Position numbers and translations under genes: made by a program
In this document: positions 1-28,812 of the stretch, piece after piece
Position numbering within the stretch: the stretch's first letter is position 1
Layout: each line of letters starts with the position of its first letter
Notes under the pieces: generated by a model
What the model was told of the DNA's origin: nothing
The model's input: only the letters and a program-made list of their open reading frames with translations
Databases searched by the model: none
IMG/VR virus record: IMGVR_UViG_2693429623_000012
Strand: one strand, 5' to 3'
Length of the DNA: 28,812 nt
Source of the DNA: a virus
Lineage: Duplodnaviria; Heunggongvirae; Uroviricota; Caudoviricetes

Positions 1-28
1 AAAGTGATCTACTATTCCGCGCAGCTAT

Positions 29-493: not shown

Positions 494-570
494 TCCGTAC
501 GGTTCCTCTGTTTTTTATTCTTGCATTAATTTAGCGTCGTAATTACCCGATTTTCAAGATACTAATGAAA

Positions 571-1320: not shown

Positions 1321-1871
1321 TATTTTGCCAACGCCAGTTTAATGCTTTCCATCACAATGGGGTCTTCCGGCGTCATATCCGGGGAAAAACGCTGGATGAC
1401 CAATCCGTCCCTGCCAACTAAAAATTTCTCAAAATTCCATAAAATATCATCAGGGTACAGCGGTGCACGACCTTTGCTGACCATACGGGCATAGAATCCG
1501 CTCTCTTCCGGCGCGACTGCGGTCGGCGCTGCGGCAATCAATTTTTGATACAGCGGATGGCGTCCTTCGCCGTTAACTTCAATCTTACTGAACATCGGGA
1601 ACGTCACCCCCCATGTGGTGGTACAGTAAGTTTTAATCTCTTCATCGCTGCCCGGTTCTTGTTCCAGAAACTGGTTGCACGGGAATCCCAGCACCACAAA
1701 ACCTCGATCGGCCCAGGCTTTCTGAATATTCTCCAACTGCTCATATTGCGGCGTTAAGCCACACTTTGAGGCGACATTGACAATCAACAGCACATTACCG
1801 GCGTACTTCTCCAGCGTGGTCACTTCACCGTCGATATCTTTCACTACGGTCGTCAGAATGGAATCTTGCAT
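1320..1871 (-). CDS. btuE: Glutathione peroxidase-family protein BtuE (183 aa)
   Basis: Full-length ORF between btuC and btuD; glutathione peroxidase-like motifs ([14 protein letters not shown]); operon context. Confidence 0.95.
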
Positions 1872-1933
1872 CGTTTCTCCTGGGTGTGGTCAGTAAAAAT
1901 CTTAGCTTTTAATCATAGACCGTCTTTTTGCGG

Positions 1934-2914
1934 CTAACGTCCTGCTTTTAACAATAACCAGATAAACACCGGCGCACCCAACGTTGCGGTGACCACGCCA
2001 ATAGGCAGCTCTGCGGCAGCTAATGCCAGGCGCGCTACAATATCGGCCAGCAGCACTGCGCTCGCCCCTGCCAGCGCGCAGCCGGGAAGTAATACGCGAT
2101 GATCGGTTAAACCACACAACCGAAGAATATGTGGGATCACCAGACCAATAAAGCCGATAGCACCCGCCAGCGCCACACTGACGCCAACCATCCAGCCGGT
2201 CGCTGCCACCAGCACATTGCGCCAGAACCACAGGGGTAAACCCAGTTGCCGCGCCGAGATCTCGCCAAGTGCTAACATATTCATCGGCCTGGACTGACAA
2301 CAGATCCACAACAACACGGGGATCAATGCCAGCATCAGCCAGCTTTGCCGCCAGTCTACGCCGCCAAAACCGCCCATCATCCAGTACATCAGCTGACGTA
2401 AATCAACAGAGGTGGAAAAGTAGATAGCCCACGTCATTAGTGCGCTACAGATAATCCCTAATGCAACGCCAGCCAGCAATAACCGACTGGTCGAAAGATG
2501 ACGACGGGCGAAACGTAAGAGTATTAAAGTGATGATAAGCGCGCCAGCAATCGCACACAGCCCTAGCGCCCAGTTGGGGAGTTGCCCTTGCCCAAGCAAT
2601 ACCGCGGCGATAAGCCCCACGCCTGCGCCGTTAGAGACGCCAAGTAGTCCAGGTTCTGCCAGAGGATTTTCAAACAACGCCTGCATTACAGCGCCGGATA
2701 TAGCCAGCGCCGCACCAACCAGCAATACAGCCAGCGTACGTGGCAGGCGAATTTGCCAGACGAACAGTTCGCCACGAGGAGTAAACCAGTCACCTGGCGA
2801 AATCCATTGTTCACCGGCGCAAAGGCTTAAGAGAAGCGCCAGCAGCATCAAAACTGACAGGCATAATAACCAGCGAATATTTTGTCGCTGTTGTTGGCGG
2901 GCAAGTGTCAGCAT
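1934..2914 (-). CDS. btuC: Vitamin B12 ABC transporter permease BtuC (326 aa)
   Basis: Highly hydrophobic multi-TM protein; sequence matches E. coli BtuC as recalled ([17 protein letters not shown]...LLKAGR). Confidence 0.95.
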
Positions 2915-2969
2915 GGTATCCGTTCTGCTGAAGTGTCATGGCGTTGATTTTACGGTGACTCTTCGACAG

Positions 2970-2997
2970 TGAAAAGAAAAAAGGCCGCAGAGCGGCC
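2970..2997 (-). terminator. Intrinsic terminator for a minus-strand transcript: hairpin GGCCGCTCTGCGGCC followed by TTTTTTCTTTTC
   Basis: Plus strand reads gaaaagaaaaaa-ggccgcagagcggcc (2970-2997); on the minus strand this is a 6-bp GC stem with 3-nt loop followed by a T-run. Lies about 110 bp downstream of the cargo ORF stop and about 60 bp upstream of the btuC start. Confidence 0.6.
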
Positions 2998-3106
2998 ATA
3001 AACACAAACAAAAATCAATAAGTTAGGTAATTATCAAAGACTTACAGACACACAAAAACACAGCCAACCACAACAAATAACAGAGATGTGGTCAATTTGT
3101 GGATCA

Positions 3107-3544
3107 TCAGCCAACAAATTTAGCAACAAATACAGCAACCGCCGCTGTGAAAATGGTTGTGCACACTGGCACAATAATGCCACTCCAACGCCACTTCGTA
3201 TTATCATCAACCTTGTCAAACCGCCGATTCATCTCATCCATAATCTTGTCAAAGCGTTTATCCATCGCTTCGGTAAGCTCACCCTTCAGGCTGTTAATGT
3301 CTGATTTGAGCTGCTCTTTCAGGTTAGCTGTATCAGATTTAAGCTCACCTTTCAGATTCGCAATATCGCATTCAAGATCACCTTTCAGATGTGCTATGTC
3401 TGCTTTGAGTTCACCTTTCACCTCACCAACATCGGCTTTAGTTGAGAGGTTTGTAGTGCGTTCAGCAAGCGTCGCAAGGTCGTTTCTTGTTAGCGATAAA
3501 TCACCTTCGAGCCGCTCAATTCGCCTTTCAAGTTTATCTGACAT
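3107..3544 (-). CDS. Membrane-anchored coiled-coil protein with five 11-residue (hendecad) repeats and one C-terminal TM helix; unknown function (alternative upstream start at 3661 gives 184 aa)
   Basis: ORF track 3107..3661. An internal ATG at 3544 is preceded by GGAGG (4-nt spacer) and gives MSDKLERRIERLEG... Repeats like ADIAHLKGDLE / CDIANLKGELK / SDTANLKEQLK; C-terminal hydrophobic segment IIVPVCTTIFTAAVAVFVAKFV. Lower GC than the flanking host genes. Confidence 0.6.
   Translation of the reverse strand: MSDKLERRIERLEGDLSLTRNDLATLAERTTNLSTKADVGEVKGELKADIAHLKGDLECDIANLKGELKSDTANLKEQLKSDINSLKGELTEAMDKRFDKIMDEMNRRFDKVDDNTKWRWSGIIVPVCTTIFTAAVAVFVAKFVG
3277..3441. repeat. Five imperfect tandem 33-bp repeats inside the coiled-coil cargo gene
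   Basis: Units start at 3277, 3310, 3343, 3376, 3409, for example gctcacctttcagattcgcaatatcgcattcaa and gatcacctttcagatgtgctatgtctgctttga; in frame, each encodes one 11-aa repeat. Confidence 0.85.
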
Positions 3545-3644
3545 TCCGCCTCCACTACTGCCGCCATCGCCACCATGATAAAGCACATCACGCTCAGAAT
3601 GCGACACACTACCTGCTGAATTACCGAAAAGATTTCTTGCTACA

Positions 3645-4178
3645 TTACCCATTATCACCATCCTGCGCTTTGTCTTTCTCCAACCACTTCAGCACCGCAG
3701 ACGTACGATAAAGGCTCAGGTAACCACAATTCAGGCAATGCAGCGTGTAATAAGTTTTGCGCATATCAGGTATGCTCTTAACATCACCCAAAAAAGCATA
3801 AGATACATAATGCTTTATGTTCTCTTTAATTAACTCACTCTGTTCCTCCAGGGGTAGATTGTTAAAATTTTCTGGTTTCTTATTTTTATCCCAGCAAAGA
3901 TCCATACTTTCTGGAACAGATAATCGCGACGATCCACATGAAGGGCAGACACTGGAGACCCCCTTCTCAGACAAGAAACGGAAGAAGATTTCTGGCGTAA
4001 TCTCCATCAGCCGCTCTTTATGTTTTNNNNNNNNNNNNNNNNNNNNNNNNNNNNNNNNNNNNNNNNNNNNNNNCGACTTCTTATTGATTTCATCAGCTTC
4101 TTCTTTGCATTTATCTTCTATATATTTCGATAGTAAATAGTCATATAACTCTTTTTTTGTAGGTTTTTTTATTTCCAT
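3645..4178 (-). CDS. Lys-rich protein with two CxxC pairs (CPSCG ... CLNCG), a putative zinc ribbon; unknown function; interrupted by an assembly gap so true length is uncertain
   Basis: ORF track 3645..4178 (16 X residues from the N run). Start ATG at 4178 lies 2 nt after the int stop (TAA at 4183-4181, minus strand) and is preceded by GGGAGGA inside the int 3' end. AT-rich (roughly 40% GC by eye). Confidence 0.55.
   Translation of the reverse strand: MEIKKPTKKELYDYLLSKYIEDKCKEEADEINKKSXXXXXXXXXXXXXXXXKHKERLMEITPEIFFRFLSEKGVSSVCPSCGSSRLSVPESMDLCWDKNKKPENFNNLPLEEQSELIKENIKHYVSYAFLGDVKSIPDMRKTYYTLHCLNCGYLSLYRTSAVLKWLEKDKAQDGDNG
4027..4073. other. Assembly gap (47 N)
   Basis: Run of n characters; not biological sequence. 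Confidence 0.99.
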
Positions 4179-4180
4179 AG

Positions 4181-5158
4181 TTACATTCCTCCCAAGGGAT
4201 TAAACCTCACCGCATCCTGCAAGTAATCCGGCGCAAGATGGGCATAAATCATCGTTGTCTGAATCTTTGCGTGCCCCAGAATTTTCTGGAGCGTCAGAAT
4301 ATTGCCGCCGTTCATCATGAAATGACTGGCGAAGGTGTGGCGCAGCGCATGAACAGCCTGGCCGTCAGGAACATCAGGTGCGACCGTTTTGATGACATCG
4401 CGAACCAATGAATAATCCAGCGTCGGAAACACCAGTTTCCCGCCCCGTTTTTTGATCTTTTCAAACAGGCTTTCAGAAATAGGAACGGTACGGTTTTTGC
4501 TGTTCTTCGTTTTTGAAAAAGTGATTCGACAATGAAGAACACGGCGCTGCTCCAGTGCCGCTACCTCGCCCCATCGCGCCCCGGTCGACAGAAGGATTTC
4601 GACGGCCAGCCGTTCATCGGGATTTTCAGCCAGTGCATCCAGCAACTGAACACATTCAGACTTACTCAGATATCCCATTTCACGCTCGTTAACCTTCATT
4701 CCTTTAAGGCCTTGAACGGGGTTATCGTTAAGAAAATGGCCGGATGAGATGAGTGCGGTAAACATCGCGCTTAACGCCCCAATCTCTCGATTTATGGTGC
4801 TGGGCTGTATCCCCTGCTCTATCCTGGACACACGTAGCTCGGTGAGCATCGTTGTATTAAGTTTATGCACGCACGGGTCATCCATTGCCTCACTCAAGCG
4901 CAGCAATTTAAGGCGCGTGTTATGCCCTGACTTCATTAGCTGGCCGTGGTATTTCCACCACAAGTCAATAAGCACTGACAGCGGACGGCGATCAATGGAG
5001 TTTCCTTTCCACTCATTGTTATGCTGTTGCGCCAGCACCCACCGCTCATATAAAACTGCATCCGATTTCGTTTTAAATTTTTTGCGAATGCGTTTGCCTT
5101 TACGCCCCTCAGGACGCATGTCAAGAAGATACCCTCCCGGAATTGATTTTATGCTCAT
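4181..5158 (-). CDS. int: Tyrosine site-specific integrase, P2 Int-like (about 325 aa)
   Basis: ORF track 4181..5308. Start moved to the ATG at 5158 (MSIKSIPGGYLLDMRPEGRKGKRIRKKF...), which aligns with the P2 Int N-terminus (MAIKKLDDGRYEVDIRPTGRNGKRIRRKF, recalled). C-terminal catalytic region HALRHTFASHFMMNGGNILTLQKILGHAKIQTTMIYAHLAPDYL carries the conserved R..H-x-x-R..Y motifs. Confidence 0.9.
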   Translation of the reverse strand: MSIKSIPGGYLLDMRPEGRKGKRIRKKFKTKSDAVLYERWVLAQQHNNEWKGNSIDRRPLSVLIDLWWKYHGQLMKSGHNTRLKLLRLSEAMDDPCVHKLNTTMLTELRVSRIEQGIQPSTINREIGALSAMFTALISSGHFLNDNPVQGLKGMKVNEREMGYLSKSECVQLLDALAENPDERLAVEILLSTGARWGEVAALEQRRVLHCRITFSKTKNSKNRTVPISESLFEKIKKRGGKLVFPTLDYSLVRDVIKTVAPDVPDGQAVHALRHTFASHFMMNGGNILTLQKILGHAKIQTTMIYAHLAPDYLQDAVRFNPLGGM

Positions 5159-5207
5159 TCGTGAAGCCCCAGCGTTACAAGACCACCATGCCCCCAGCGT
5201 TCCATGA

Positions 5208-5519
5208 TTAGCCGGGCTGTGTGCCAGTCTTGCGGGATTTTTGAGAAGACGATGTGTTTTCTGGCCCATCAGGGGAGAGAGAAGGACTGATCTGCCCAGC
5301 AGCCTCATTTGTTTCGTTACTCATCAACCACGTAGTGTATTTTTTAAATTCCGGGTGCATTGTGATTTTCAGTAAAACCTCCGTTCCCACACCTCGAATA
5401 CCAGTCTCGTATTGCTTAACCGTACCAACCGCAATACCTATTGAATCCGCGAACTTTGCCTGACTAAGCCCCTCAGATTCTCGAATTGCTTTTAGCTTCT
5501 TTGATATCTCTATTGACAT
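5208..5519 (-). CDS. Immunity repressor, P2 C-like (about 104 aa)
   Basis: ORF track 5208..5621; start moved to the ATG at 5519 (MSIEISKKLKAIRESEGLSQAKFADSIGIAVGTVKQYETG..., HTH). C-terminal part ...EFKKYTTWLMSNETNEAAGQISPSL... resembles P2 C (...QFTKYTLWFMTNQIAPESGQIAPAL..., recalled). Divergent from the cox-like gene, upstream of int. Confidence 0.8.
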   Translation of the reverse strand: MSIEISKKLKAIRESEGLSQAKFADSIGIAVGTVKQYETGIRGVGTEVLLKITMHPEFKKYTTWLMSNETNEAAGQISPSLSPDGPENTSSSQKSRKTGTQPG

Positions 5520-6798: not shown

Positions 6799-6908
6799 GT
6801 ATATTTATTTCATGGCTTGTTCTGATTATTTCGGTGGTCTGCGCCATTGGGATTATGCGAATTATTAATTCAGTAAAAAAGATTGAACGCTTTTTCACTG
6901 AAGAATAA
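6795..6908 (+). CDS. Small hydrophobic protein (37 aa, one predicted TM helix); not in the ORF track
   Basis: My own translation: ATG at 6795 overlaps the upstream stop (ATGA) and reads MSIFISWLVLIISVVCAIGIMRIINSVKKIERFFTEE, stop at 6906-6908. Confidence 0.35.
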   Translation: MSIFISWLVLIISVVCAIGIMRIINSVKKIERFFTEE

Positions 6909-6994
6909 CCGCGCAAATAAGACCCTAGGTTAAATAAGAAAATGTGAAAACAATCCGCATTCGCGGAGGTATTCGCACACGCCAAGGAGGCGTA

Positions 6995-7198
6995 ATGGCA
7001 ATTAAGCATTTTCCTGTCGTTCGTTTCACCTCCAGAGGACGTGAATACGAAGTTGACGAACGCCTGATTACCACAATCGACAAACACCGTTCAGAAAAGG
7101 ATGCACATCATATCTATCTCACTGACGGCACTTACTTCTGCGCCACCAACGTGGTGCAGGTGAATCTTATCAGACAGGTACAGGAGTCACGCAGATGA
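6995..7198 (+). CDS. Hypothetical early-operon protein (67 aa)
   Basis: ORF track 6944..7198 trimmed to the ATG at 6995 (MAIKHFPVVRF...), preceded by AAGGAGG at 6984-6990. Confidence 0.5.
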   Translation: MAIKHFPVVRFTSRGREYEVDERLITTIDKHRSEKDAHHIYLTDGTYFCATNVVQVNLIRQVQESRR

Positions 7199-7440
7199 CC
7201 ATTCTGGACTACATCGCTGCCAATCCGGGTTGTAGCAGTGGAGAAATCGCCGCAGCACTGAATACACCAACCACAACCATTAATGCGGAGCTACGCCGTC
7301 TCTGGCGCAGCGGTTTAGTCACAAGAAAAGAGCGCAAAACAGGCGGTCGCTTTTCTTATCAGGTAAACCTGATGCCGTTTGGGTGTAGCAACCCACTAAC
7401 CCAGATGTTCAACCAGCTACTGAGGGAAATCAGAGCATGA
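7195..7440 (+). CDS. Small putative winged-helix DNA-binding protein (81 aa)
   Basis: ORF track 7195..7440; segment SSGEIAAALNTPTTTINAELRRLWRSGLVTRKER looks like an HTH with a wing; start overlaps the upstream stop. Confidence 0.45.
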   Translation: MTILDYIAANPGCSSGEIAAALNTPTTTINAELRRLWRSGLVTRKERKTGGRFSYQVNLMPFGCSNPLTQMFNQLLREIRA

Positions 7441-7581
7441 GCACCTCCAACTGCCGGAAACCACGTCGGGCTTCAGCAGCTCATCCGGCAGCAAAACAAA
7501 CTCCATTAATTCCTGTTCCGGGCCTTTCCTGCACCTTGCGGCGGGAGGCCTTCGCACATCTGTAACAAGAGGATTGCCGCA

Positions 7582-7947
7582 ATGATTCTCGCCAACGACT
7601 TTCTTGAATACCTGCTCAACACAGAGCGTGATCTTGCCGCTCGCGTGCGTGATCGTTATGACATGTACCTGAAATCCCTGCCTGTACCGCAGCTCGCTGA
7701 CGGAAAGATTGTTATTGATGGTCGCTACATGATTGACAGCCACGAGGGAAATTACAGGCTTTACCGCATTGAAGGTGGCACCCCGTCCGTTATTGGCATT
7801 TACCAGCGCCCATCCTCTGCAATCGTCGATGTGATTGCCGACAGCATCCGCATCACACATCGCCATGCCGACACAGAAGACACCGTGCTGGAAATTCAGC
7901 GGCTGGCTACAGTCTGCCGCGACACCCTGAATGGCATGACGAAGTAA
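7582..7947 (+). CDS. Hypothetical early-operon protein (121 aa)
   Basis: ORF track 7582..7947; AAGAGGA upstream; immediately precedes the replication gene. Confidence 0.5.
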   Translation: MILANDFLEYLLNTERDLAARVRDRYDMYLKSLPVPQLADGKIVIDGRYMIDSHEGNYRLYRIEGGTPSVIGIYQRPSSAIVDVIADSIRITHRHADTEDTVLEIQRLATVCRDTLNGMTK

Positions 7948-7953
7948 ATCACT

Positions 7954-10776
7954 ATGACGGCAGAGTACATCAGGGACTGGCAACAACCGCGCCACGCAGT
8001 GGGGCGTGAAGGAACGGGGATCCCCGCTCCTGAATCCGCGCTTTCCTCCTGGCTGGATGCCCACCGGGCAGAGAACGAGCGCCGCCAGGAAATGGCTGAT
8101 GCGGCGTTCTCCGCCACGCCACTGGGCAACCTGATTAATAAAAGCCTGGACGCACAGGAAAAACAGGACAAAACCATCACACTGGCAGGAGACGCCAGAA
8201 AACAGGCACGCGGCGCGGTGGATGAAGCCATGGCCTCGCTGCGCCTGCTGCCGTCCTATCTGCGCGATCCGCTTATTCGCCACCTCTCCTTCCTGCGCAA
8301 AAAACAGGAAGCCGATCGCCGGAAAGGCAAAAAGAGCTGGCAGGCGGAACGCTATGCACGCGGAACCCTGCGCAAAATATTCGAACGTCTGGATCGCACT
8401 GACGGACACTGGCTGACACCGGGTTATCGCTCCCTTGCCGGACGTGAACGCCTGGACGATTTGCTTTACCTGCCGCAACTCAACAAACACCAGATACAGA
8501 CGCTGGCCACCATGACGGCGGCGATGTTCAGCAGCACCTTCGAAAAACTCTGCGATGGTTTTGGCGCGACTGATGGCGAGCTGACCATGGATGTAACGCT
8601 GAAGGCGTATCAGATGCTGGCCCGCATGGCGTTACACTTACACGCCATGCCTCCGCATTATGACGCACTGACAACAGACAAAGACCGGAGGCACGAACCG
8701 GACACAGAACTGCTGCCGGGCGCAATCCTTCGCCTGACCTGTGCGGAATGGTGGAAACGCAAACTGTGGCTGTTACGTTGCGAGTGGAGAGAAGAACAAC
8801 TTCGCGCCGCCTGTCTGGTTTCCAGAAAAACATCGCCCTATCTGAGCCAGGACGCGTTAAGCGAGTTTCGCGCACAGCGCGAGAAAACACGCGATTTCCT
8901 GAAAAGTTTCATGCTGGAAAATGAAGACGGGTTCACGATTGATCTCGAGACGGTGTATTACGCGGGAGTAAGTAACCCGGTTCACCGTAAGGCAGAAATG
9001 ATGGCCACCATGAAGGGGCTGGAACTTCTGGCCGAAGCCCGTGGCGACAAAGCGGTGTTTCTGACTGTCACCTGCCCGTCAAAATACCACGCCACAACGG
9101 AGAACGGTCATCCGAATCCCAAATGGAACGGGGCCACAATGCGCGACTCCAGCGATTACCTGGTTAACACGTTTTTTGCGACGGTCCGCAAAAAACTGAA
9201 CCGCGACGGCCTGCGCTGGTATGGCATCCGCACGGCGGAGCCTCACCATGACGGCACCGTGCACTGGCATATGATGGTCTTTGCTCATCCGGAAGAAATC
9301 GACACCATTGTGTCCCACACCCGCGATATTGCCATTCAGGAAGATCGTCACGAGCTGGGCGATGACATAACTCCGCGCTTTAAGGCGGAGTATGTAGACG
9401 GCTCAAAAGGCACGCCAACCAGCTACATCGCCACCTACATCGGGAAAAACCTGGACAGCCGCGCCGTGGATGGCATCGACCCGAAAACGGGCAAGCCACG
9501 CGTTGACCACGAAACCGGAAAATCAATGGCCGAGAGCGTGGAACGCGCCATCGGCTGGGCGCGCCTTCACCGGGTCCGCCAGTTCCAGTTCTTTGGCATC
9601 CCCTCCCGCCAGGTATGGCGTGAACTGCGCCGCCTTGCCAGCCAGATGGCACGCAACCCGGAAGGCCCGCAACGGCTGAAGGATGACGCAATGGATGCGG
9701 TTCTTGCCGCCGCTGATGCCGGATGTTTTGCCACCTACATAGAGAAACAGGGCGGCGTACTTGTTCCACGCAAAGACTACCTGATTCGCACCGCCTACGA
9801 CCTCGCCGATGAGCTGAACGATTACGGCGAACAGAGCGTACAGATTTACGGGATCTGGTCACCACTCATCGGGGAATCCTCCCGTGTGTGCACGCATCCG
9901 GATAACTGGAAGCTGGTAAGACGCAAACCGGAAGCGGAAGACAGCGCCCGCGAAAATGGTTTTGACCTTCAGGGCGGCCCTGCCGCCCCTTGGACTCGTG
10001 GCAATAACTGTCCCCGTGTACAGGAAACGGACAACAACGGGACAGAACAGCCGGAAGAACGGCCAGCACCGTGGCCGCAGCTCCCTGACGGCGTTGATGT
10101 GGATGAATGGATGCGCTCACTGAAACGGCACGAACGCCGGGCGCTGATGCGTTCGCTTCGTGACAAACAGGCAAAAAACAGCAGTGATGAAATGCAGAGC
10201 TGGACACAGAGCCGCAAACAGCAGCGGCCTTTGCCTGATAACCACGAATTACTCGCTAAAGAATGGCGGGAGTCTGCTGAATCTCTCGGCCTGCATATCG
10301 GTGAACAACAGATGCAGCACCTGTTACGGGGCGGCAGTCTGTACGTTGACGGCAGCATCATTGCACCGCAGGGATTTGAAATTGTACGCAAACCGGATAC
10401 CCGCCCGGACAGCCGAATCACGCAGCTCTGGCAGCGCCTGAGCCGTAATCATGGCGTAAGCAGCACGGAGATCCGCCATAACCCGGTCGCCAGCTATCTG
10501 ACACAGCTGGGGGCATCAGACCCTGAAGCCGCCGCACGCCTGGCATCCACACTTCAGCAGGACCAGAACACCATGAAAACACCCGTTACCGTGCTTTCTG
10601 ACATGCTGCGCGCCATCCGCGACGCAGAGCACGCACAGAGAATCAGTGAAACCACTGAACGCGCCCGCCGCAAAGCAGACCTGCTGCGGGGTGGCCTGAC
10701 CAGTGGAAACAAAAAACAGACAGAAACGGGACTCACGAATCCCGTAAATGAGCAAAAAACGCGCAGCGATATATGA
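7954..10776 (+). CDS. A: Rolling-circle replication initiation endonuclease, P2 gpA family (940 aa, long C-terminal extension)
   Basis: HUH motif HWHMMVF encoded at 9262-9282 (residues 437-443) and paired catalytic tyrosines Y-x3-Y (SYIATYIGKN, 9421-9450, residues 491 and 495), as in P2 A; position after the early ORFs matches P2. Confidence 0.9.
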   Translation: MTAEYIRDWQQPRHAVGREGTGIPAPESALSSWLDAHRAENERRQEMADAAFSATPLGNLINKSLDAQEKQDKTITLAGDARKQARGAVDEAMASLRLLPSYLRDPLIRHLSFLRKKQEADRRKGKKSWQAERYARGTLRKIFERLDRTDGHWLTPGYRSLAGRERLDDLLYLPQLNKHQIQTLATMTAAMFSSTFEKLCDGFGATDGELTMDVTLKAYQMLARMALHLHAMPPHYDALTTDKDRRHEPDTELLPGAILRLTCAEWWKRKLWLLRCEWREEQLRAACLVSRKTSPYLSQDALSEFRAQREKTRDFLKSFMLENEDGFTIDLETVYYAGVSNPVHRKAEMMATMKGLELLAEARGDKAVFLTVTCPSKYHATTENGHPNPKWNGATMRDSSDYLVNTFFATVRKKLNRDGLRWYGIRTAEPHHDGTVHWHMMVFAHPEEIDTIVSHTRDIAIQEDRHELGDDITPRFKAEYVDGSKGTPTSYIATYIGKNLDSRAVDGIDPKTGKPRVDHETGKSMAESVERAIGWARLHRVRQFQFFGIPSRQVWRELRRLASQMARNPEGPQRLKDDAMDAVLAAADAGCFATYIEKQGGVLVPRKDYLIRTAYDLADELNDYGEQSVQIYGIWSPLIGESSRVCTHPDNWKLVRRKPEAEDSARENGFDLQGGPAAPWTRGNNCPRVQETDNNGTEQPEERPAPWPQLPDGVDVDEWMRSLKRHERRALMRSLRDKQAKNSSDEMQSWTQSRKQQRPLPDNHELLAKEWRESAESLGLHIGEQQMQHLLRGGSLYVDGSIIAPQGFEIVRKPDTRPDSRITQLWQRLSRNHGVSSTEIRHNPVASYLTQLGASDPEAAARLASTLQQDQNTMKTPVTVLSDMLRAIRDAEHAQRISETTERARRKADLLRGGLTSGNKKQTETGLTNPVNEQKTRSDI

Positions 10777-10852: not shown

Positions 10853-11812
10853 ATGAAAATTTGTATCGACGACGGCTCCACCAACATCAAGCTGGCATGG
10901 ACTGAGAACGGCGAACGCCGCAACGCCATCAGCCCGAACAGCTTCAAGTCGGAATGGTCTGCGCCGTTCGGTGGCATGCAGCCCGCGAACTACATGCTTG
11001 ATGGCGTGCGCTATGGTTTTGATCCGGTCAGCGATCGCTTTGTCCAGACAACCGACACGCAATACCAGTACAGCGATGTAAATGTCATTGCCATTCATCA
11101 CGCGCTGGTCAAATCAGGCATCACGCCACAGGAGGTGGATGTGGTTGTCACCCTGCCACTGAGCGAGTATTTCGACACAAACGCACAGCCGGACATGGCC
11201 AACATCAACCGCAAAAAAGCGAACGTTATGCGCCCGGTGGAGTACCAGAACGGCGAAGCATTCACTATCCGTAACGTGCGGGTTATGCCTGAATCCATTC
11301 CGGCTGGCTTTAAGGCACTGGCTGACATGAGTCCGTTTGAATCCCTGCTGATTGTGGATTTGGGCGGAACCACGCTGGATGTGGCAAAGGTTCAGGGGCA
11401 ACTGGCAGGTATCAGCCAGGTGTTTTGCGATCCACACGTAGGCGTTTCTCTGATGGCCGATGCCGTACTGTCGGTGATGGCCACTAACGGTATGCGCACC
11501 AGTCACCACATCGCCAATACCATTATCGAACATCGCCATGATGAAGCCTGGCTGCGCCAGCACATCCACAATGACGCGCATTACGCCAGCCTGATGGCGG
11601 TTATTCGTGAAAAGGAAGAAACACTGAAACAACGCGTGATCCGCGCGCTGGCGGGTTTTTCGGGTTACGGGCGGGTGATGGTTGTCGGTGGAGGGGCGGA
11701 GATTGTGGCACCCGCTATCCGCGAAGCCTGCGGAGTTAATGCGACTTTCATCGCGGACGGGGTGCCACAGTTTGCTCTGGTTAATGGGCTGTACGCAATG
11801 GACAAGGAGTAA
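10853..11812 (+). CDS. Actin-like segregation ATPase, ParM/StbA family (319 aa)
   Basis: N-terminus MKICIDDGSTNIKLAW...ISPNSFKSEW...YSDVNVIAIHHAL closely parallels plasmid R1 ParM (MLVFIDDGSTNIKLQW...ISPNSFKREW...YSDVNVVAVHHAL, recalled); AAGGAAAAG upstream. Confidence 0.85.
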   Translation: MKICIDDGSTNIKLAWTENGERRNAISPNSFKSEWSAPFGGMQPANYMLDGVRYGFDPVSDRFVQTTDTQYQYSDVNVIAIHHALVKSGITPQEVDVVVTLPLSEYFDTNAQPDMANINRKKANVMRPVEYQNGEAFTIRNVRVMPESIPAGFKALADMSPFESLLIVDLGGTTLDVAKVQGQLAGISQVFCDPHVGVSLMADAVLSVMATNGMRTSHHIANTIIEHRHDEAWLRQHIHNDAHYASLMAVIREKEETLKQRVIRALAGFSGYGRVMVVGGGAEIVAPAIREACGVNATFIADGVPQFALVNGLYAMDKE

Positions 11813-24956: not shown

Positions 24957-25825
24957 ATGAGTACCACAACACGAAAATTTAAAACCATTATCACCGATAC
25001 GGGTGCAAAAAAATTAGCGCAGGCAACCGCGCCAGATGGGAAACCTGTCCGCCTGACACATATGGCCGTGGGTGACGGCGGCGGTACTTTACCCACGCCA
25101 GACAGTAAGCAGACCCGTCTTGTGCATGAGGTGTGGCGACATACCGTTAATCGCGTCACCCTGGACGCAACACATCAGAACCACATTATTGCGGAGCTGG
25201 TTATTCCTCCTGAAACGGGCGGATTCTGGATCCGGGAAATTGGTGTGTTTGATGAGCACGGCGATTTGATCGCGGTAGGCAATACTGCCGAAAGTTACAA
25301 GCCAACCGTTGCCGAAGGATCCGGACGTGCACAAACATTTCGCACCATTCTGACCGTATCCAGCACTGCCACTGTGGCGCTTACCGTGGATAACACCATG
25401 GTGATGGCCACAGTGAATTACGTGGATGACAAACTGAAAGAGCATGAACAGTCACGACGTCACCCGGACGCCTCGCTGACCGCAAAAGGCCTTGTCCAGC
25501 TCAGCAACGCCACCAACAGCACGTCTGAAACGCTGGCAGCGACACCAAAAGCCGTTAAGGCAGTAATGGATGAAACGAACAAGAAAGCCCCATTAAACAG
25601 CCCGGCACTGACCGGAACGCCAACAACACCAACTGCGCGACAGGGAACGAATAATACCCAAATCGCAAGCACGGCTTTCGTTATGGCTGCGATTGCCGCA
25701 CTTGTAGACTCTTCGCCTGATGCACTGAACACACTGAACGAGCTGGCGGCGGCGCTGGGCAACGACCCGAATTTTGCGACCACCATGACTAACGCGCTTG
25801 CGGGTAAGCAACCGAAAGATGCCAC
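24957..25825 (+). CDS. H: Tail fibre protein, P2 gpH-like, 3' end truncated by assembly gap
   Basis: ORF track 24957..25907 runs through the N run; only 24957..25825 is real sequence. Follows I as in P2. The C-proximal part shares a near-identical segment with the downstream stf gene. Confidence 0.85.
25493..25825. repeat. Copy 1 of a ~330-bp near-identical direct repeat (tail-fibre module shared by H and stf)
   Basis: 25493-25825 aligns with 27740-28072; exact identity over at least 90 bp (25606-25698 vs 27852-27949), scattered mismatches elsewhere. Copy 1 ends exactly at the N gap. Confidence 0.9.
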
Positions 25826-25852
25826 NNNNNNNNNNNNNNNNNNNNNNNNNNN
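25826..25852. other. Assembly gap (27 N) joining P2-like and lambdoid material
   Basis: Run of n characters placed at the end of the shared repeat; sequence on the two sides belongs to different phage modules. Confidence 0.99.
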
Positions 25853-26209
25853 TACAGCGATACCCGCTGGCATGAAGATTCCGTGCGTAACCGCTGGTTC
25901 AGCGTGATGGCGGGGCCGTCTGTACGCGTGAATGAATGGTTCAGCGCGTATGCGATGGTGGGTGTGGCTTACAGCCGTGTGTCGACTTTCTCCGGGGATT
26001 ATCTCCGCGTAACTGACAACAAGGGGAAAACGCACGATGTGCTGACCGGAAGTGATGACGGTCGCCACAGCAACACGTCTCTGGCGTGGGGGGCTGGCGT
26101 GCAGTTTAACCCGACCGAATCCGTGACCATTGACCTTGCTTATGAAGGTTCCGGTAGTGGTGACTGGCGAACGGATGCATTTATTGTTGGTATCGGATAC
26201 CGTATCTGA
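25853..26209 (+). CDS. lom: Ail/Lom-family outer-membrane beta-barrel protein, 3' fragment (5' end missing at the gap)
   Basis: Reading frame open from the gap edge: YSDTRWHEDSVRNRWFSVMAGPSVRVNEWFSAYAM...SLAWGAGVQFNPTESVTIDLAYEGSGSGDWRTDAFIVGIGYRI, matching the lambda Lom C-terminal half as recalled. Confidence 0.85.
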   Translation, partial: YSDTRWHEDSVRNRWFSVMAGPSVRVNEWFSAYAMVGVAYSRVSTFSGDYLRVTDNKGKTHDVLTGSDDGRHSNTSLAWGAGVQFNPTESVTIDLAYEGSGSGDWRTDAFIVGIGYRI

Positions 26210-26314
26210 CAACAGACGCCGATTTATCTTCTGTAAATATTGTTATGATACGCAGGTTCATCCACCTTATGGGGTGAACTGCGTTTGAGGAAACGTAAAG
26301 TTACACTGTCCTGA

Positions 26315-26348
26315 AGCCCGTGGCGTCACTGCTGCGGGCTTTTTTTAT
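26315..26348 (+). terminator. Possible intrinsic terminator downstream of lom
   Basis: AGCCCG-(14-nt loop)-CGGGCT followed by TTTTTTTATT (26340-26348). The loop is long, so confidence is limited. Confidence 0.4.
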
Positions 26349-26360
26349 TGGTGGAAAAGT

Positions 26361-28812
26361 ATGACAGTAAAAATTTCTGGCGTGCTTAAAGATGGCACAG
26401 GAAAACCAGTACAGAACTGCACCATTGTGCTGAAGGCCAGACGAACCAGCAGCACGATGGTGGTGAACACGGTGGCCTCTGAAAATCCGGATGAAGCCGG
26501 ACGTTACAGCATGGATGTTGAGCATGGTCAGTACAGCGTCACCCTGCTGGTTGAAGGTTTTCCGCCTTCACATGCCGGGACCATTACCGTCTATGAAGGT
26601 TCCAGACCAGGTACGCTGAATGATTTTCTCGGTGCCATGACGGAGGATGATGTCCGACCGGAGGCACTGCGCCGCTTTGAGCAGATGGTGGAAGAGGTGT
26701 CACGTAACGCCTCCGCGGTTGCACAGAATACGGCAGCCGCGAAAAAATCAGCCAGCGAGGCGGCAACTCATGCAACCGATGCTGCAGCCTCAGCACGTGC
26801 CGCCAGCACGTCAGCCGGACAGGCCGCGTCGTCGGCTCAGTCAGCGTCTTCCAGCGCAGGAACGGCATCGACAAAGGCCCGTGAAGCAGCAAAAAGTGCT
26901 GCTGCAGAGTCATCAAAAAGCGCGGCAGCTACCAGCGCCAGTGCCGCGAAAACGTCAGAAACGAATGCCGCAGCATCACAAAAATCGGCAGCCACTTCTG
27001 CATCCACAGCGACCACGAAGGCGTCAGAAGCTGCCACCTCGGCACGGGGTGCGGCGGCCTCAAAAGAGGCAGCGAAATCTTCAGAAACGAATGCATCATC
27101 AAGTGCCAGTAGTGCAGCTTCCTCGGCAACGGCGGCAGGAAATTCCGCGAAGGCGGCAAAAACGTCCGAGACGAACGCTAAGTCTTCTGAAACAGCAGCG
27201 GGACAGAGCGCCTCAGCTGCGGCAGGTTCAAAAACAGCGGCTGCATTATCTGCCAGTGCCGCGTCAACAAGTGCCGGGCAGGCCTCAGCCAGTGCCACCG
27301 CCGCCGGAAAATCGGCAGAAAGCGCCGCATCATCCGCTTCAACAGCCACAACGAAGGCTGGCAAAGCCACTGAGCAAGCCACTGCAGCAGCGAGGTCTGC
27401 TTCTGCAGCAAAAACCTCTGAAACAAATGCAAAGACTTCAGCAGACAATGCTGCTTCCTCTAAGGCAGCAGCCGCATCGTCAGCCAGTTCAGCGGCGTCA
27501 TCGGCATCATCTGCGTCTGCTTCAAAAGATGAGGCGACCAGACAAGCGTCAGCAGCGAAAGGTAGTGCCACGACAGCAACAACGAAAGCATCAGAGGCGG
27601 CAGGCAGTGCGACGGCTGCATCTCAGAGCAAAGTTGCTGCTGAATCCGCGGCAACGCGCGCCGAGACAGCAGCAAAACGGGCAGAGGATATTGCATCCGC
27701 CGTGGCGCTTGAGGATGCGAGCACGACGAAAAAGGGGATAGTACAGCTCAGCAGTGCGACCAACAGCACTTCCGAGTCACTGGCGGCAACGCCAAAAGCG
27801 GTTAAGGCGGTAATGGGTGAAACGAACAAGAAAGCGCCCTTAAATAGTCCTGCACTGACCGGAACGCCAACAACACCAACTGCGCGACAGGGAACGAATA
27901 ATACCCAAATCGCAAGCACGGCTTTCGTTATGGCTGCGATTGCCGCCCTTGTAGATTCGTCACCTGATGCACTGAACACGCTGAACGAGCTGGCTGCGGC
28001 GCTGGGCAACGACCCGAATTTTGCGACCACCATGACTAACGCGCTTGCGGGTAAGCAACCGAAAGATGCCACTCTGACGGCGCTGGCGGGGCTTGCTACT
28101 GCGGCAGACAGGTTTCCGTATTTTACGGGGAATGATGTCGCCAGCCTGGCAACCCTGACAAAAGTCGGGCGGGATATTCTTGCGAAATCGACCGTTGCTG
28201 CCGTTATCGAATACCTCGGTTTACAGGAAACGGTAAACAAGGCTGGTAACGCCGTTCAGCGTTCCGGCGATAAAATGACCGGAGAACTGAAAATTGGCAC
28301 GGTGAATGCGCTGCGAATTTTCAATGATACCTTCGGTCTAATTTTCCGTCGTTCAGAAGATTTTCTTCATTTCATTCCGACGGCTGAAGGACAAGGCGAA
28401 AACGGTAATATCGGCCCATTAAGGCCATTCGCTATAAATCTGAGAACAGGTGCTATATCTGTCAGCCACGGGGCCAAAATTAAAGGAGGTCTAGCTATTG
28501 GAGCTACTGATAACGCACTGGGTGAAAACTCCATTGTTCTGGGAGATAACGACACCGGATTTAGGCAAGATGGAGATGGTATTATTAGCTTCTATTCAAA
28601 TGGTTCGCGCATCGGACATATTGATGAGTTAGGATTACATCTTTATAAAGATATTGAATCTAATGGCAGCAATTTTAGATTAAAAAGTAATTACCGCCAC
28701 CACATTACATTCGCCAACGAAGACGGAAGAATTCGTATGTTTTTGTGGAAAGATAACGGTGGTGATGGTGTTCATATTAATAACGGTTCAGATGGTGGTG
28801 GTGATTTCATTT
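26361..28812 (+). CDS. stf: Side tail fibre protein, lambda Stf-like (partial, continues past window end)
   Basis: My own translation from the ATG at 26361 is open to the end of the window (not in the ORF track because there is no stop): MTVKISGVLKDGTGKPVQNCTIVLKARR...SMDVEHGQYSV..., then a long Ala/Ser/Thr-rich repeat region, then ...KKGIVQLSSATNSTSESLAATPKAVKAV...ALAGKQPKDATLTALAGL..., matching lambda Stf as recalled. Confidence 0.9.
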   Translation, partial: MTVKISGVLKDGTGKPVQNCTIVLKARRTSSTMVVNTVASENPDEAGRYSMDVEHGQYSVTLLVEGFPPSHAGTITVYEGSRPGTLNDFLGAMTEDDVRPEALRRFEQMVEEVSRNASAVAQNTAAAKKSASEAATHATDAAASARAASTSAGQAASSAQSASSSAGTASTKAREAAKSAAAESSKSAAATSASAAKTSETNAAASQKSAATSASTATTKASEAATSARGAAASKEAAKSSETNASSSASSAASSATAAGNSAKAAKTSETNAKSSETAAGQSASAAAGSKTAAALSASAASTSAGQASASATAAGKSAESAASSASTATTKAGKATEQATAAARSASAAKTSETNAKTSADNAASSKAAAASSASSAASSASSASASKDEATRQASAAKGSATTATTKASEAAGSATAASQSKVAAESAATRAETAAKRAEDIASAVALEDASTTKKGIVQLSSATNSTSESLAATPKAVKAVMGETNKKAPLNSPALTGTPTTPTARQGTNNTQIASTAFVMAAIAALVDSSPDALNTLNELAAALGNDPNFATTMTNALAGKQPKDATLTALAGLATAADRFPYFTGNDVASLATLTKVGRDILAKSTVAAVIEYLGLQETVNKAGNAVQRSGDKMTGELKIGTVNALRIFNDTFGLIFRRSEDFLHFIPTAEGQGENGNIGPLRPFAINLRTGAISVSHGAKIKGGLAIGATDNALGENSIVLGDNDTGFRQDGDGIISFYSNGSRIGHIDELGLHLYKDIESNGSNFRLKSNYRHHITFANEDGRIRMFLWKDNGGDGVHINNGSDGGGDFI
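27740..28072. repeat. Copy 2 of the ~330-bp direct repeat shared with gene H
   Basis: See copy 1; here the repeat continues into ...actctgacggcgctggcggggctt..., the sequence expected to follow where copy 1 is cut by the gap. Confidence 0.9.

What the first reader, a model, noticed from the sequence alone, without database searches (positions are those of the whole stretch)
28240..28812. Compositional shift in the distal part of stf suggests an exchanged receptor-binding domain
From about 28.25 kb the stf reading frame changes from GC-rich, Ala/Ser-rich sequence to markedly AT-rich sequence encoding Gly/Asn/Asp-rich motifs (...IGATDNALGENSIVLGDNDTGFRQDGDGIISFYSNGSRIGHIDELGLHLYK...WKDNGGDGVHINNGSDGGGDF...). 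Such a break is the expected signature of a horizontally acquired distal receptor-binding region.
Basis: partly seen in the sequence, partly recalled or inferred. Interest (0 to 1): 0.45.

Follow-up and report, generated by a model that had tools for sequence, protein, structure and literature searches.

The report
Swappable tail-fibre tip at invertase site
The drop in G+C at the end of this prophage tail-fibre gene is real and starts at a 26-bp recombination site like the one phage Mu uses to flip its tail-fibre tip, so it marks a well-known kind of exchangeable host-range cassette, not something new.

Summary
G+C falls from 0.569 (stf, 26361-28229) to 0.420 (28230-28812). Third-codon-position G+C falls from 0.558 to 0.340, and the best change point is 28270.

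The break coincides with three things:
- Collinearity with lambda Stf ends at residue ~623.
- A 26-bp site at 28204-28229 (TTATCGAATACCTCGGTTTACAGGAA) matches the phage Mu gix crossover site at 24 of 26 positions.
- Homology to Mu S/S' variable parts and to T4 gp34/gp37 modules begins there.

Near-identical N-free contigs supply the missing 101 codons. They also show the classic layout: Sv-tfa, then an inverted tfa'-Sv', then a second inverted site. The same cassette occurs in both orientations, with recombinant half-sites. It is joined to lambda-type, P2-type, Mu-type and P1-like fibre bases. Phage P2 H shows the same G+C drop at the same site.

- The boundary is an invertase crossover site.
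- The window holds only the proximal two-thirds of the cassette, not the tip.
- A second mosaic junction lies at ~28450-28560.

One caveat: the window is a scaffold. A run of N at 25826-25852 joins a P2-like prophage to a lambdoid lom'-stf contig.

This is a new member of a known kind, of low interest.

The parts
26361..28812 (+). stf, a lambda-type side tail fibre gene. It is 3'-truncated by the window end: 817 of about 918 codons are present.
   Evidence: The reading frame is open from 26289 to the window end, with ATG at 26361. Pfam PF08400 phage_tail_N scores 2.1e-68. The protein is 75-82% identical to lambda orf-401. The full length of 918 aa is inferred from the N-free contig L024, which is 99.73% identical over 25853-28812.
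26361..26780 (+). N-terminal domain of Stf (prophage tail fibre N-terminal).
   Evidence: Pfam PF08400 matches residues 2-133. G+C is 0.542.
26781..27740 (+). Ala/Ser/Thr-rich shaft.
   Evidence: Composition over approximately this stretch (residues 141-470) is Ala 37%, Ser 24% and Thr 12%. GC2 is 0.794 over 26781-27740. It is collinear with lambda orf-401 apart from a gap in the match between Stf residues ~343 and ~408.
27741..28203 (+). Conserved constant segment shared by lambda-type Stf and P2-type H fibres.
   Evidence: 92.2% nucleotide identity to window 25494-25825, in the P2-type H gene. Matched by P2-type H genes of complete E. coli genomes from 27726 onward. G+C is 0.563 and GC3 is 0.558.
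28204..28229 (+). gix-like crossover site of a Gin/Cin/Pin-family serine invertase: TTATCGAATACC-TC-GGTTTACAGGAA. It encodes (V)IEYLGLQE. The central TC is at 28216-28217.
   Evidence: 24 of 26 positions match the Mu site, which lies on Mu's annotated G-segment boundary. It is the only match in the window at up to 3 mismatches, with 0 expected in 100 shuffles. 25 of 26 positions match the site in P2 H. Half-sites recombine with their flanks across loci.
28230..28561 (+). First module of the variable cassette (Sv). It is shared with ST131-type lambdoid Stf and Mu-like Yersinia phages, and is related to T4 gp34 and T-even gp37 shaft domains.
   Evidence: Lambdoid E. coli hits run to 28561. Yersinia phage vB_YpM_3 is 90% identical over 28204-28603, and T-even gp37 genes are 71.5% identical over 28300-28429. 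PDB sequence hits are 5yvq, 4uxe, 5nxf and 6f45. G+C is 0.467.
28562..28812 (+). Second, rarer module of the cassette. It includes the start of a weak gp37_trimer match and is the most AT-rich part.
   Evidence: G+C is 0.361 and GC3 is 0.274. It is found in only 26 of 5426 complete E. coli genomes, with 13 of the 28 matching places on plasmids. PF20744 scores 22.1 bits against a cut-off of 21.7. Identity to the ST131-type gene decays from 28450 onward.
25853..26209 (+). 3' part of lom (Ail/Lom outer-membrane protein gene). It is cut at its 5' end by the scaffold gap.
   Evidence: Pfam PF06316 matches profile positions 92-198 of 199, E = 5.7e-63. lom is intact in L024. Another assembly (L023) has an N directly before the equivalent of window position 25853.
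25826..25852 (.). Run of 27 N: a scaffold gap between a P2-like prophage contig and the lambdoid lom'-stf contig.
   Evidence: Seen. The left contig ends with 77 nt that appear, by my eye from the printed sequences, to be exactly repeated at 27996-28072 (not checked by a tool). L026 has an N at the equivalent point.
24957..25825 (+). 5' part of a P2-type tail fibre gene H (tail-collar N-terminus plus fibre repeat). It is cut by the gap.
   Evidence: Pfam PF12571 scores 2.5e-55 and PF03406 scores 6.3e-21. It follows the baseplate J and I genes.

Best explanation
The compositional break is the boundary between the constant part and the variable, exchangeable part of a phage tail-fibre gene. It falls on a 26-bp crossover site for a Gin/Cin/Pin-type serine DNA invertase (28204-28229).

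Upstream lies a lambda-type Stf: an N-terminal domain, an Ala/Ser shaft, and a conserved segment also found in P2 H. Downstream begins a Mu-G-segment-like cassette (Sv). In full it encodes about 295 residues and ends in a Mu S/S'-like C-terminal domain.

In near-identical genomes the cassette is followed by its tail-fibre assembly gene, then an inverted tfa'-Sv' pair, then a second site in inverted orientation. Cleavage at the central TC of the two sites and a 180-degree exchange fuse the constant part in frame to either Sv or Sv', which switches receptor specificity.

The site and the adjoining linker (LGLQETVN) are conserved across lambda-, P2-, Mu- and P1-type fibres, so the same junction also serves as the seam where whole cassettes are swapped between phage types. 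The cassette pool is AT-rich (G+C about 0.44) wherever it sits. That is why G+C falls at the site.

Shown here: the break, the site, the end of lambda collinearity, the homologies, and both orientations and several fibre bases in other genomes.

Inferred: that the window's own genome carries the rest of the segment, and that the segment still inverts there. The lambdoid copies have only an invertase remnant, so inversion would need an invertase supplied in trans.
For: Composition:
- The G+C and GC3 break is statistically clear, with the best change point at 28270.

The site:
- 28204-28229 matches Mu gix at 24 of 26 positions, and the Mu site lies on Mu's annotated G-segment boundary.
- Zero matches are expected by chance in the window.

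Lambda:
- Lambda Stf collinearity ends at residue ~623.
- Lambda keeps only the left half-site and diverges just after the centre.
- The distal part has no similarity to the lambda Stf C-terminus.

Near-identical contigs:
- The N-free contigs L020, L022 and L024 are 99.73-99.80% identical over 25853-28812.
- L024 continues into 101 more codons, then tfa, an inverted tfa', an inverted Sv' and an inverted site 2.9 kb away.

Half-site analysis over 64 loci:
- The left half TTATCGAATACC always follows the fibre constant region.
- TTATCTAAAACC always follows the invertase-side flank.
- The right half GGTTTACAGGAA always precedes this Sv, and GGTTTACGAGAA always precedes Sv'.
- All four combinations occur, for example L024 against L026, L045 and L050. 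The same cassette therefore exists in both orientations, with exchange inside the site.

In-frame fusion and invertase:
- In L026 an ORF crosses the recombinant site in frame.
- L026 also carries an intact invertase 85% identical to Mu Gin, next to a P2-like prophage that is 99.78% identical to the one in the window.

Sharp boundary:
- Against the Mu-type contig L010, identity is 26-58% upstream of 28200 and 88-100% downstream.

Same cassette on other fibre bases:
- P2-type H in complete genomes.
- Mu-type S (P0010).
- A P1-like phage-plasmid with a recombinase gene.

Fold and homology:
- Sequence hits to Mu S' (8ju3, 4e-14), Mu S (5yvq, 1e-11), S16 gp37 and T4 gp34.
- The best Foldseek hit is 5yvq_A, E = 1.8e-10.

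Family-wide G+C drop:
- P2 H goes from 0.562 to 0.437. L001, L002, L003 and L024 go from 0.55-0.58 to 0.43-0.47.
Against: - The window ends 583 nt into the cassette. The partner site, Sv', the tfa genes and any invertase are not in the window and are known only by proxy.
- In the lambdoid contexts examined (L003, L005, L024) the neighbouring invertase gene is a remnant (annotated incomplete in L003 and L005; no Pfam hit in L024). Present-day inversion there is therefore unproven.
- The window is a scaffold. In its source genome the cassette could belong to the P2-type H gene, to the lambdoid stf, or to both.
- The orientation polymorphism was seen between assemblies, not in reads from one culture.
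- In Mu itself the G+C difference across the site is small (0.478 against 0.452). The size of the drop therefore owes something to the G+C-rich lambda/P2 constant parts.
- The AlphaFold monomer model is of low confidence (pLDDT 68.6, pTM 0.34).
Confidence: 0.85

Rival explanations
1. Assembly chimera. In the source genome the distal cassette belongs only to the P2-type H gene. A short-read assembler joined it to the lambdoid stf through the roughly 330-480-nt segment the two genes share, so the 'exchanged domain' in this stf would be an artefact.
For: - The window is a scaffold with a 27-N gap at 25826-25852.
- The P2-type H contig stops after 77 nt that appear, by my eye from the printed sequences, to be exactly repeated inside stf (25749-25825 = 27996-28072; not checked by a tool).
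- L026 and L023 show scaffold breaks at the same places.
- Among complete E. coli genomes, the four records that span 27726-28812 contiguously all carry a P2-type fibre gene or lie on a plasmid. None carries a lambda-type stf.
Against: - Three N-free contigs from different genomes (L020, L022, L024) carry lom, the stf N-terminus, the shaft, the site and this cassette contiguously at 99.7-99.8% identity.
- Complete ST131-type genomes have a lambda-type Stf with the same site and the same first ~330 nt of the cassette.
- Even if this rival were true, the compositional break and its cause would be unchanged. Only the identity of the fibre base would differ.
Confidence: 0.08
2. A fixed relic of a past swap. 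The distal part was acquired once by recombination at the conserved linker, as in phage P2 H. The site-like sequence is only a fossil, and no inversion takes place at this locus today.
For: - P2 H has a single site (25 of 26 positions), no partner within 2.5 kb on either side and no recombinase gene annotated in the stretch fetched. It shows the same G+C drop.
- The lambdoid loci have only a truncated recombinase gene.
Against: - Near-identical lambdoid loci keep a well-conserved inverted partner site with the same central TC.
- Lambdoid contigs are found in both orientations with reciprocal half-sites (L024 against the N-free L045 and L050).
- An intact invertase 85% identical to Gin sits in the P2-like prophage of a sister genome.
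- Pin-family invertases are published to act in trans on another prophage's segment (PMC12529663).
Confidence: 0.25
3. The composition shift is only a by-product of amino-acid content (Ala-rich GCN codons against Gly/Asn/Asp/Ile codons) within one co-evolved gene, with no exchange.
For: GC2 is very high in the shaft (0.794) and low distally (0.407).
Against: - GC3 also falls, from 0.558 in the adjacent non-Ala conserved segment to 0.340 (p = 5e-5).
- Homology relationships change abruptly at the same point.
Confidence: 0.02

Closest known systems
Phage Mu G segment (S/S' and U/U' genes, gix sites, Gin invertase)
   Same: - A 26-bp site at the constant/variable boundary inside the fibre gene (24 of 26 positions identical), with the same LGLQETVN linker.
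- A variable part homologous to Mu S (5yvq) and S' (8ju3), including the C-terminal RPIQK..G.WYNVGS domain seen in the full-length proxy.
- The Sv-tfa / tfa'-Sv' layout between inverted sites.
- A related invertase, 85% identical to Gin, in a sister genome.
   Different: - The constant part is a lambda-type Stf of about 620 aa, not Mu Sc of about 170 aa.
- The middle of the cassette differs: overall identity is 35% to the S variable part and 29% to the S' variable part.
- There is no intact invertase next to the lambdoid copies.
- The G+C contrast is much larger than in Mu.
Phage P2 tail fibre H and assembly protein G
   Same: - The same conserved segment upstream.
- The same site sequence at the same place (25 of 26 positions).
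- The same G+C drop (0.562 to 0.437).
- A distal part that is a distant homologue (29.6% over 295 aa) followed by a Caudo_TAP assembly gene.
   Different: - P2 has a tail-collar N-terminus, no second site near H and no recombinase gene annotated in the stretch fetched.
- Its tip is different.
Phage lambda side tail fibre Stf (orf-401/orf-314) and Tfa
   Same: - The N-terminal domain, the Ala/Ser shaft and the conserved segment are collinear at 70-82% aa identity up to residue ~623.
- The gene lies downstream of lom.
   Different: - Lambda keeps only the left half of the site.
- It continues into an unrelated C-terminal domain; BLASTP of the window's distal 194 aa against lambda orf-314 gives only E = 0.35.
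- The G+C drop in lambda is much smaller (0.569 to 0.521).
E. coli e14 P segment (stfP/stfE, tfaP/tfaE, Pin) and the trans-acting PinQ/PinR
   Same: A prophage tail-fibre segment inverted by Pin-family serine invertases, including invertases encoded by other prophages (PMC12529663). This is the precedent for trans inversion of a lambdoid cassette that lacks its own invertase.
   Different: - The published inverted repeats have a different sequence, and the segment is 1.8 kb.
- The e14 genes are remnants.
- No phage-defence role has been tested here.
T4 gp34 and T-even/S16 gp37 long-tail-fibre shaft domains
   Same: - Residues ~640-775 share motifs such as GDNDTGFR.DGDG.
- PDB sequence hits are 6f45 (3e-5), 4uxe (1e-4) and 5nxf (1.6e-4).
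- T-even gp37 genes are 71.5% identical at nucleotide level over 28300-28429.
- Composition is similarly AT-rich.
   Different: - The similarity is local and modular.
- No gp38-type adhesin is involved; the chaperone is a Tfa (Caudo_TAP).

Membership tests
Gin/Cin/Pin-type invertible tail-fibre segment (Mu G-segment kind) | A 26-bp crossover site inside the fibre gene at the constant/variable boundary | tested here: met
   Window 28204-28229 matches Mu gix at 24 of 26 positions, and the Mu site lies on the annotated G-segment boundary. Zero matches are expected by chance.
Gin/Cin/Pin-type invertible tail-fibre segment (Mu G-segment kind) | A second site in inverted orientation bounding the segment, with an identical central dinucleotide | tested here: inconclusive
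   The window ends before the place where the second site would lie. In the N-free contigs L024, L022 and L020 (99.7-99.8% identical) an inverted site with central TC lies about 2.9 kb downstream. This is proxy evidence only.
Gin/Cin/Pin-type invertible tail-fibre segment (Mu G-segment kind) | Two alternative fibre C-termini, each with its own assembly gene, arranged head to head | tested here: inconclusive
   Not in the window. In L024 there is a tfa at 6890-7417 (+), a tfa' at 7446-7979 (-) and an Sv' at 8132-8743 (-). The two tfa genes match Caudo_TAP and the Sv' matches gp37_C in Pfam.
Gin/Cin/Pin-type invertible tail-fibre segment (Mu G-segment kind) | An adjacent serine invertase gene | tested here: not met
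   There is none in the window. In the lambdoid proxies the gene is annotated as incomplete, and the corresponding ORF in L024 has no Pfam hit. Intact invertases exist in P2-like and P1-like contexts (L002, L062, L063, and L026 at 85% identity to Gin).
Gin/Cin/Pin-type invertible tail-fibre segment (Mu G-segment kind) | Both orientations occur, with reciprocal exchange at the site | tested here: met
   Across assemblies, all four half-site/flank combinations are found: const+Sv with rec+Sv' in L024, L022, L003 and others, and const+Sv' with rec+Sv in L026, L045 and L050. Not tested within one culture.
Lambda Stf side tail fibre | An N-terminal PF08400 domain, with the gene downstream of lom | tested here: met
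   PF08400 scores 2.1e-68. A lom fragment lies at 25883-26209.
Lambda Stf side tail fibre | Collinear with lambda Stf through the C-terminal receptor-binding part | tested here: not met
   Similarity stops at residue ~623. The distal part against orf-314 gives E = 0.35.
Mu S/S'-type variable fibre part | Sequence and fold similarity to the solved Mu S and S' structures | tested here: met
   phmmer with the 95%-identical full cassette of L001 gives 8ju3 at 4.3e-14 and 5yvq at 1.1e-11. Foldseek with the model of P0003 gives 5yvq_A at 1.8e-10. The strongest match, the last 66 residues, lies outside the window.
T4 gp37 trimerization region (PF20744) | Pfam gathering score reached | tested here: met
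   The window fragment scores 22.1 bits against a cut-off of 21.7, which is marginal and truncated. The full-length proxy L024 scores 27.5 bits.

The most novel reading that the evidence does not exclude
In the source strain the lambdoid side-tail-fibre gene, which has lost its own invertase, has its host-range cassette flipped in trans. The Gin-like invertase doing this would belong to the co-resident P2-like prophage that the scaffold places beside it. The two unrelated prophages would then draw on one shared cassette pool. This particular cassette is absent from all cultured phages in the collection searched (best match 44% aa identity), so it may recognise a receptor not yet assigned to any phage.
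Probability: 0.3. Interest if true: 0.4.

Novelty: new member of a known kind. Interest (0 to 1): 0.18.

Why it matters
The practical value is for annotation. A G+C drop inside an enterobacterial tail-fibre gene can be pinned to the nucleotide by looking for the gix-like 26-mer. That gives the limits of the host-range cassette and predicts what lies downstream: tfa, an inverted tfa'-Sv' pair and a partner site.

The result also warns that short-read assemblies break or mis-scaffold at these shared segments, as this window does.

Biologically it adds one more uncharacterised receptor-binding cassette. It is rare, present in 26 of 5426 complete E. coli genomes, half of the matches on phage-plasmids, and also in Shigella, Salmonella and E. 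albertii. It adds to the known pool that circulates among lambda-, P2-, Mu- and P1-type phages. It opens no new question.

Tried and rejected
- A protein-pattern scan of the 185,579 species-representative genomes with the distal 194 aa found no relative. I did not use the second scan that was allowed.
- The first tblastn against loci gave mixed output because all loci were stored in one file. I repeated it per locus.
- I first took 26364 as the stf start. BLASTP showed the ATG is at 26361, so residue numbers are one too low. This is corrected in the report.
- The AlphaFold2 monomer of the cassette was only moderately confident (pLDDT 68.6, pTM 0.34). I use the Foldseek hits only as support for the sequence-level matches, and global TM scores (0.2-0.36) are not meaningful for an elongated trimer subunit.
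- The 1992 P2 tail-fibre paper (PMC206541) and the P2 review (PMC4836473) are not in the held library. What I say about them rests on the reference title and my own knowledge.
- I considered and rejected an amino-acid-composition artefact (GC3 also drops).
- I considered that the N-run might be a length-preserving mask. The flanks are an H gene and mid-lom, so it is a scaffold join.
- I did not try to locate the exact source contig, because it would end where the window ends.
Full report
**Context of the window**

The window opens with chromosomal genes whose Pfam families and lengths match the E. coli nlpC-btuD-btuE-btuC cluster (the gene assignment is my own knowledge). An integrase follows at 4181-5308. 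After it comes a P2-like prophage:
- a GPA replication gene at 7954-10776;
- portal and terminase genes on the minus strand;
- baseplate J and I genes;
- a P2-type fibre gene H starting at 24957.

At 25826-25852 there is a run of 27 N. To its left, H stops at '...ALAGKQPKDAT'. To its right, the sequence resumes in the middle of lom (Ail/Lom profile positions 92-198). It then continues into a lambda-type stf (ATG 26361, PF08400 at 2.1e-68), which runs off the window end after 817 codons.

The finding therefore lies on a 2960-nt lambdoid contig that has been scaffolded behind a P2-like prophage contig. Three observations fit this:
- The left contig ends after 77 nt that, by my reading of the printed sequences, recur exactly inside stf (25749-25825 = 27996-28072; not checked by a tool).
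- The wider repeat 25494-25825 against 27741-28072 is 92% identical.
- Other assemblies break at the same two points (L026 and L023).

Yes. G+C is 0.569 for stf up to 28229 and 0.420 from 28230 to the end. The drop survives a control for the Ala-rich shaft. The neighbouring non-Ala conserved segment 27741-28203 has G+C 0.563 and GC3 0.558, against 0.421 and 0.340 distally (Fisher p = 5e-6 and 5e-5).

The best two-segment change point is 28270, with a log-likelihood ratio of 22.5. In 300 codon shuffles the maximum was 8.3.

The fall has two steps: 0.467 over 28230-28561 and 0.361 over 28562-28811.

**What sits at the break**

Protein comparison with lambda shows collinear similarity of 70-82% up to residue ~623, which is nucleotide ~28229, and nothing after it. 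The distal 194 residues against lambda orf-314 give E = 0.35.

Exactly there, at 28204-28229, lies TTATCGAATACCTCGGTTTACAGGAA.
- In phage Mu, TTATCCAAAACCTCGGTTTACAGGAA (24 of 26 positions identical) straddles the annotated G-segment boundary. It recurs inverted at the other boundary, next to the gene annotated 'G-segment invertase'.
- A search of the window with the Mu site at up to 3 mismatches finds only this place. None is expected in 100 shuffles.
- The site encodes (V)IEYLGLQE. Its central TC is in the Leu619 codon.
- Lambda retains only the left half (TTCTTGAATACC) and diverges just after the centre.
- Phage P2 H has a single copy (25 of 26 positions) at the same position.

**What the distal sequence is**

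The full cassette, taken from a 95%-identical P2-type gene (L001), hits several solved structures:
- Mu S' (8ju3, 4.3e-14, last 66 residues);
- Mu S (5yvq, 1.1e-11, three stretches, including the linker GLQETVN.A.NAVQ);
- the S16 gp37 tip (6f45, 2.9e-5, the GDNDTG.R..GDG motif);
- T4 gp34 (4uxe and 5nxf, ~1e-4).

PHROGs places it in tail-fibre families. Pfam gives a marginal gp37_trimer match.

An AlphaFold2 monomer of a 94%-identical stand-alone cassette ORF (P0003) was only moderately confident (pLDDT 68.6). Its best Foldseek match in the PDB is nonetheless the Mu fibre-chaperone complex 5yvq_A (1.8e-10), followed by 8ju3 and T4 gp34.

An alignment with Mu S and S' shows three parts: a shared linker, a variable middle, and a shared C-terminal domain (...VRDIRLG...SGYV.T...RPIQK.I.G.WYNVGS). 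That last domain is outside the window.

**The missing 3' end and the layout**

IMG/VR contigs L013 and L020-L024 match window 25853-28812 at 99.73-99.80%. L020, L022 and L024 contain no N. L024 shows the following:
- a complete Stf of 918 aa, so the window lacks 101 codons;
- a Caudo_TAP assembly gene, then a second one inverted;
- an inverted fibre C-terminus (Pfam gp37_C);
- an inverted site (TTATCTAAAACCTCGGTTTACGAGAA when read inward) 2.9 kb from the first.

No intact invertase follows. In the complete ST131-type genomes the gene there is annotated as an incomplete recombinase.

P2-like prophages with the same cassette do carry a recombinase gene (L002). So do a P1-like 93-kb phage-plasmid and a 48.7-kb phage-plasmid. 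In L026, which is a scaffold, the P2-like part is 99.78% identical to the window's. It has an intact 201-aa Resolvase+HTH_7 protein, 85% identical to Mu Gin, beside a site.

**Evidence that exchange happens at the site**

I oriented every occurrence of the site in 64 loci and compared half-sites with flanks. The half-sites track their flanks without exception:
- TTATCGAATACC follows a fibre constant region.
- TTATCTAAAACC follows the invertase-side flank.
- TTATCCAAAACC follows the Mu Sc flank.
- GGTTTACAGGAA precedes this cassette.
- GGTTTACGAGAA precedes the alternative Sv'.

All four combinations exist. L024, L022 and the ST131-type genomes L003 and L005 have const+Sv and rec+Sv'. L026 and the N-free L045 and L050 have const+Sv' and rec+Sv.

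That is the reciprocal product expected from cleavage at the central dinucleotide, which is TC in all of these sites. In L026 an ORF crosses the recombinant site in frame. One contig (L020) carries the constant region on both sides of the segment. This would be expected if both orientations were present in the sequenced culture, but that is an inference.

**Evidence for exchange between phage types**

The same cassette follows three other kinds of fibre base:
- a Mu-type S constant part (L010, L049; protein P0010);
- a P2-type H constant part (L001, L002, L007, L018, L027);
- P1-like fibres (L062).

Against the Mu-type contig L010, identity to the window is at background level (26-58% in a forced global alignment) upstream of 28200. 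It is 88-100% from 28200 onward.

Within the cassette there is a second seam. ST131-type lambdoid genes are ~100% identical to 28450 and then decay to 30-58%, across the conserved GDNDTGFRQ motif. One database variant (P0013) lacks the first module altogether.

The 28562-28812 module is rare. It occurs in 26 of 5426 complete E. coli genomes, and 13 of the 28 matching places are on plasmids. No phage in the INPHARED collection has the whole cassette. The best matches are the Mu-like Yersinia phages vB_YpM_3 and vB_YpM_23, at 44% aa identity.

Database relatives come from E. coli, Escherichia sp., E. albertii, Salmonella and Shigella. A Shigella sonnei fragment is 100% identical over the first 89 residues.

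**Why the composition changes**

The cassette pool is AT-rich wherever it is found. The whole invertible segment has G+C 0.436-0.442 in L024, L002 and L003, next to constant parts at 0.55-0.58. P2 H itself goes from 0.562 to 0.437 at the site, and P2 G is 0.438.

The drop is therefore a family-wide property of these cassettes. It does not show that this particular gene acquired its tip recently.

Part of the cassette is 71.5% identical at nucleotide level to T-even gp37 genes. From my own knowledge, T-even genomes are AT-rich. A shared origin or exchange with that pool is a plausible source of the composition, but I have not shown it.

**Comparison with what is known**

Gin-mediated inversion of the Mu G segment, and its effect on the tail-fibre proteins, is textbook (PMC3575834). 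Programmed inversions in prophage tail-fibre genes have been catalogued and confirmed by long reads (PMC9881135). Pin-family invertases acting in trans on another prophage's segment are published (PMC12529663).

The relatedness of P2 H to the fibres of other phages was the subject of Haggard-Ljungquist et al. 1992. I could see only the title, in a reference list; the rest is my own knowledge.

The present case is one more instance: a lambda-type Stf base carrying a G-segment-type cassette.

**Verdict**

- The mechanism is a known kind.
- This specific cassette is uncharacterised.
- Interest is low.

Noticed in passing
window 25826-25852: A run of 27 N joins a P2-type H gene (cut at '...KQPKDAT') to mid-lom, so the window is a scaffold of two contigs from two different prophage types. 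The left contig ends in 77 nt that, by my eye, recur exactly at 27996-28072 (not checked by a tool). Other assemblies break at the same points, so the join may be a mis-scaffold.
   Followed up: partly
window 4027-4073: A second run of N (47 bases) lies just downstream of the prophage integrase gene (4181-5308, minus strand), inside a 177-aa minus-strand ORF (3645-4178).
   Followed up: no
window 25494-25825 and 27741-28072: A 332-nt direct repeat at 92% identity. It is the conserved fibre segment shared by the P2-type H gene and the lambda-type stf. It is a likely substrate for homologous recombination between co-resident prophages and for assembly errors.
   Followed up: partly
window 28450-28560: A second mosaic junction lies inside the cassette. 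ST131-type lambdoid stf genes are ~100% identical up to ~28450 and then diverge across the conserved GDNDTGFRQ motif. G+C drops further, to 0.36.
   Followed up: partly
window 1-5308: The left end is chromosomal. Its genes have the Pfam families and lengths of E. coli nlpC, btuD, btuE and btuC. A 184-aa coiled-coil ORF and the integrase follow, so the P2-like prophage sits next to btuC. The AT-rich stretch at 2750-3500 is the only other place in the window as AT-rich as the finding.
   Followed up: no
window 10853-11812: A ParM/StbA-type actin-like segregation gene (PF06406 at 2.7e-82) lies right after the 940-aa GPA replication gene of the P2-like prophage. As far as I recall, P2 itself has no such gene.
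   Followed up: no
window 26837-27571 and 27623-28240, minus strand: Long antisense ORFs (244 and 205 aa) overlap the Ala/Ser-rich shaft of stf, as orf206b does in lambda. They are probably a by-product of the GCN-rich codon pattern.
   Followed up: no
L020 (IMGVR_UViG_2531839193_000006), 8890-9084: This N-free contig has the fibre constant region on both sides of the invertible segment: const-site-Sv ... Sv'-site-const in reverse complement. This would be expected if both orientations were present in the sequenced culture.
   Followed up: partly
L024 9352-10020, L003 9047-9715: A class I SAM-dependent methyltransferase gene lies immediately beyond the invertase remnant in the lambdoid loci. 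The region has the same low G+C (0.43) as the invertible segment.
   Followed up: no
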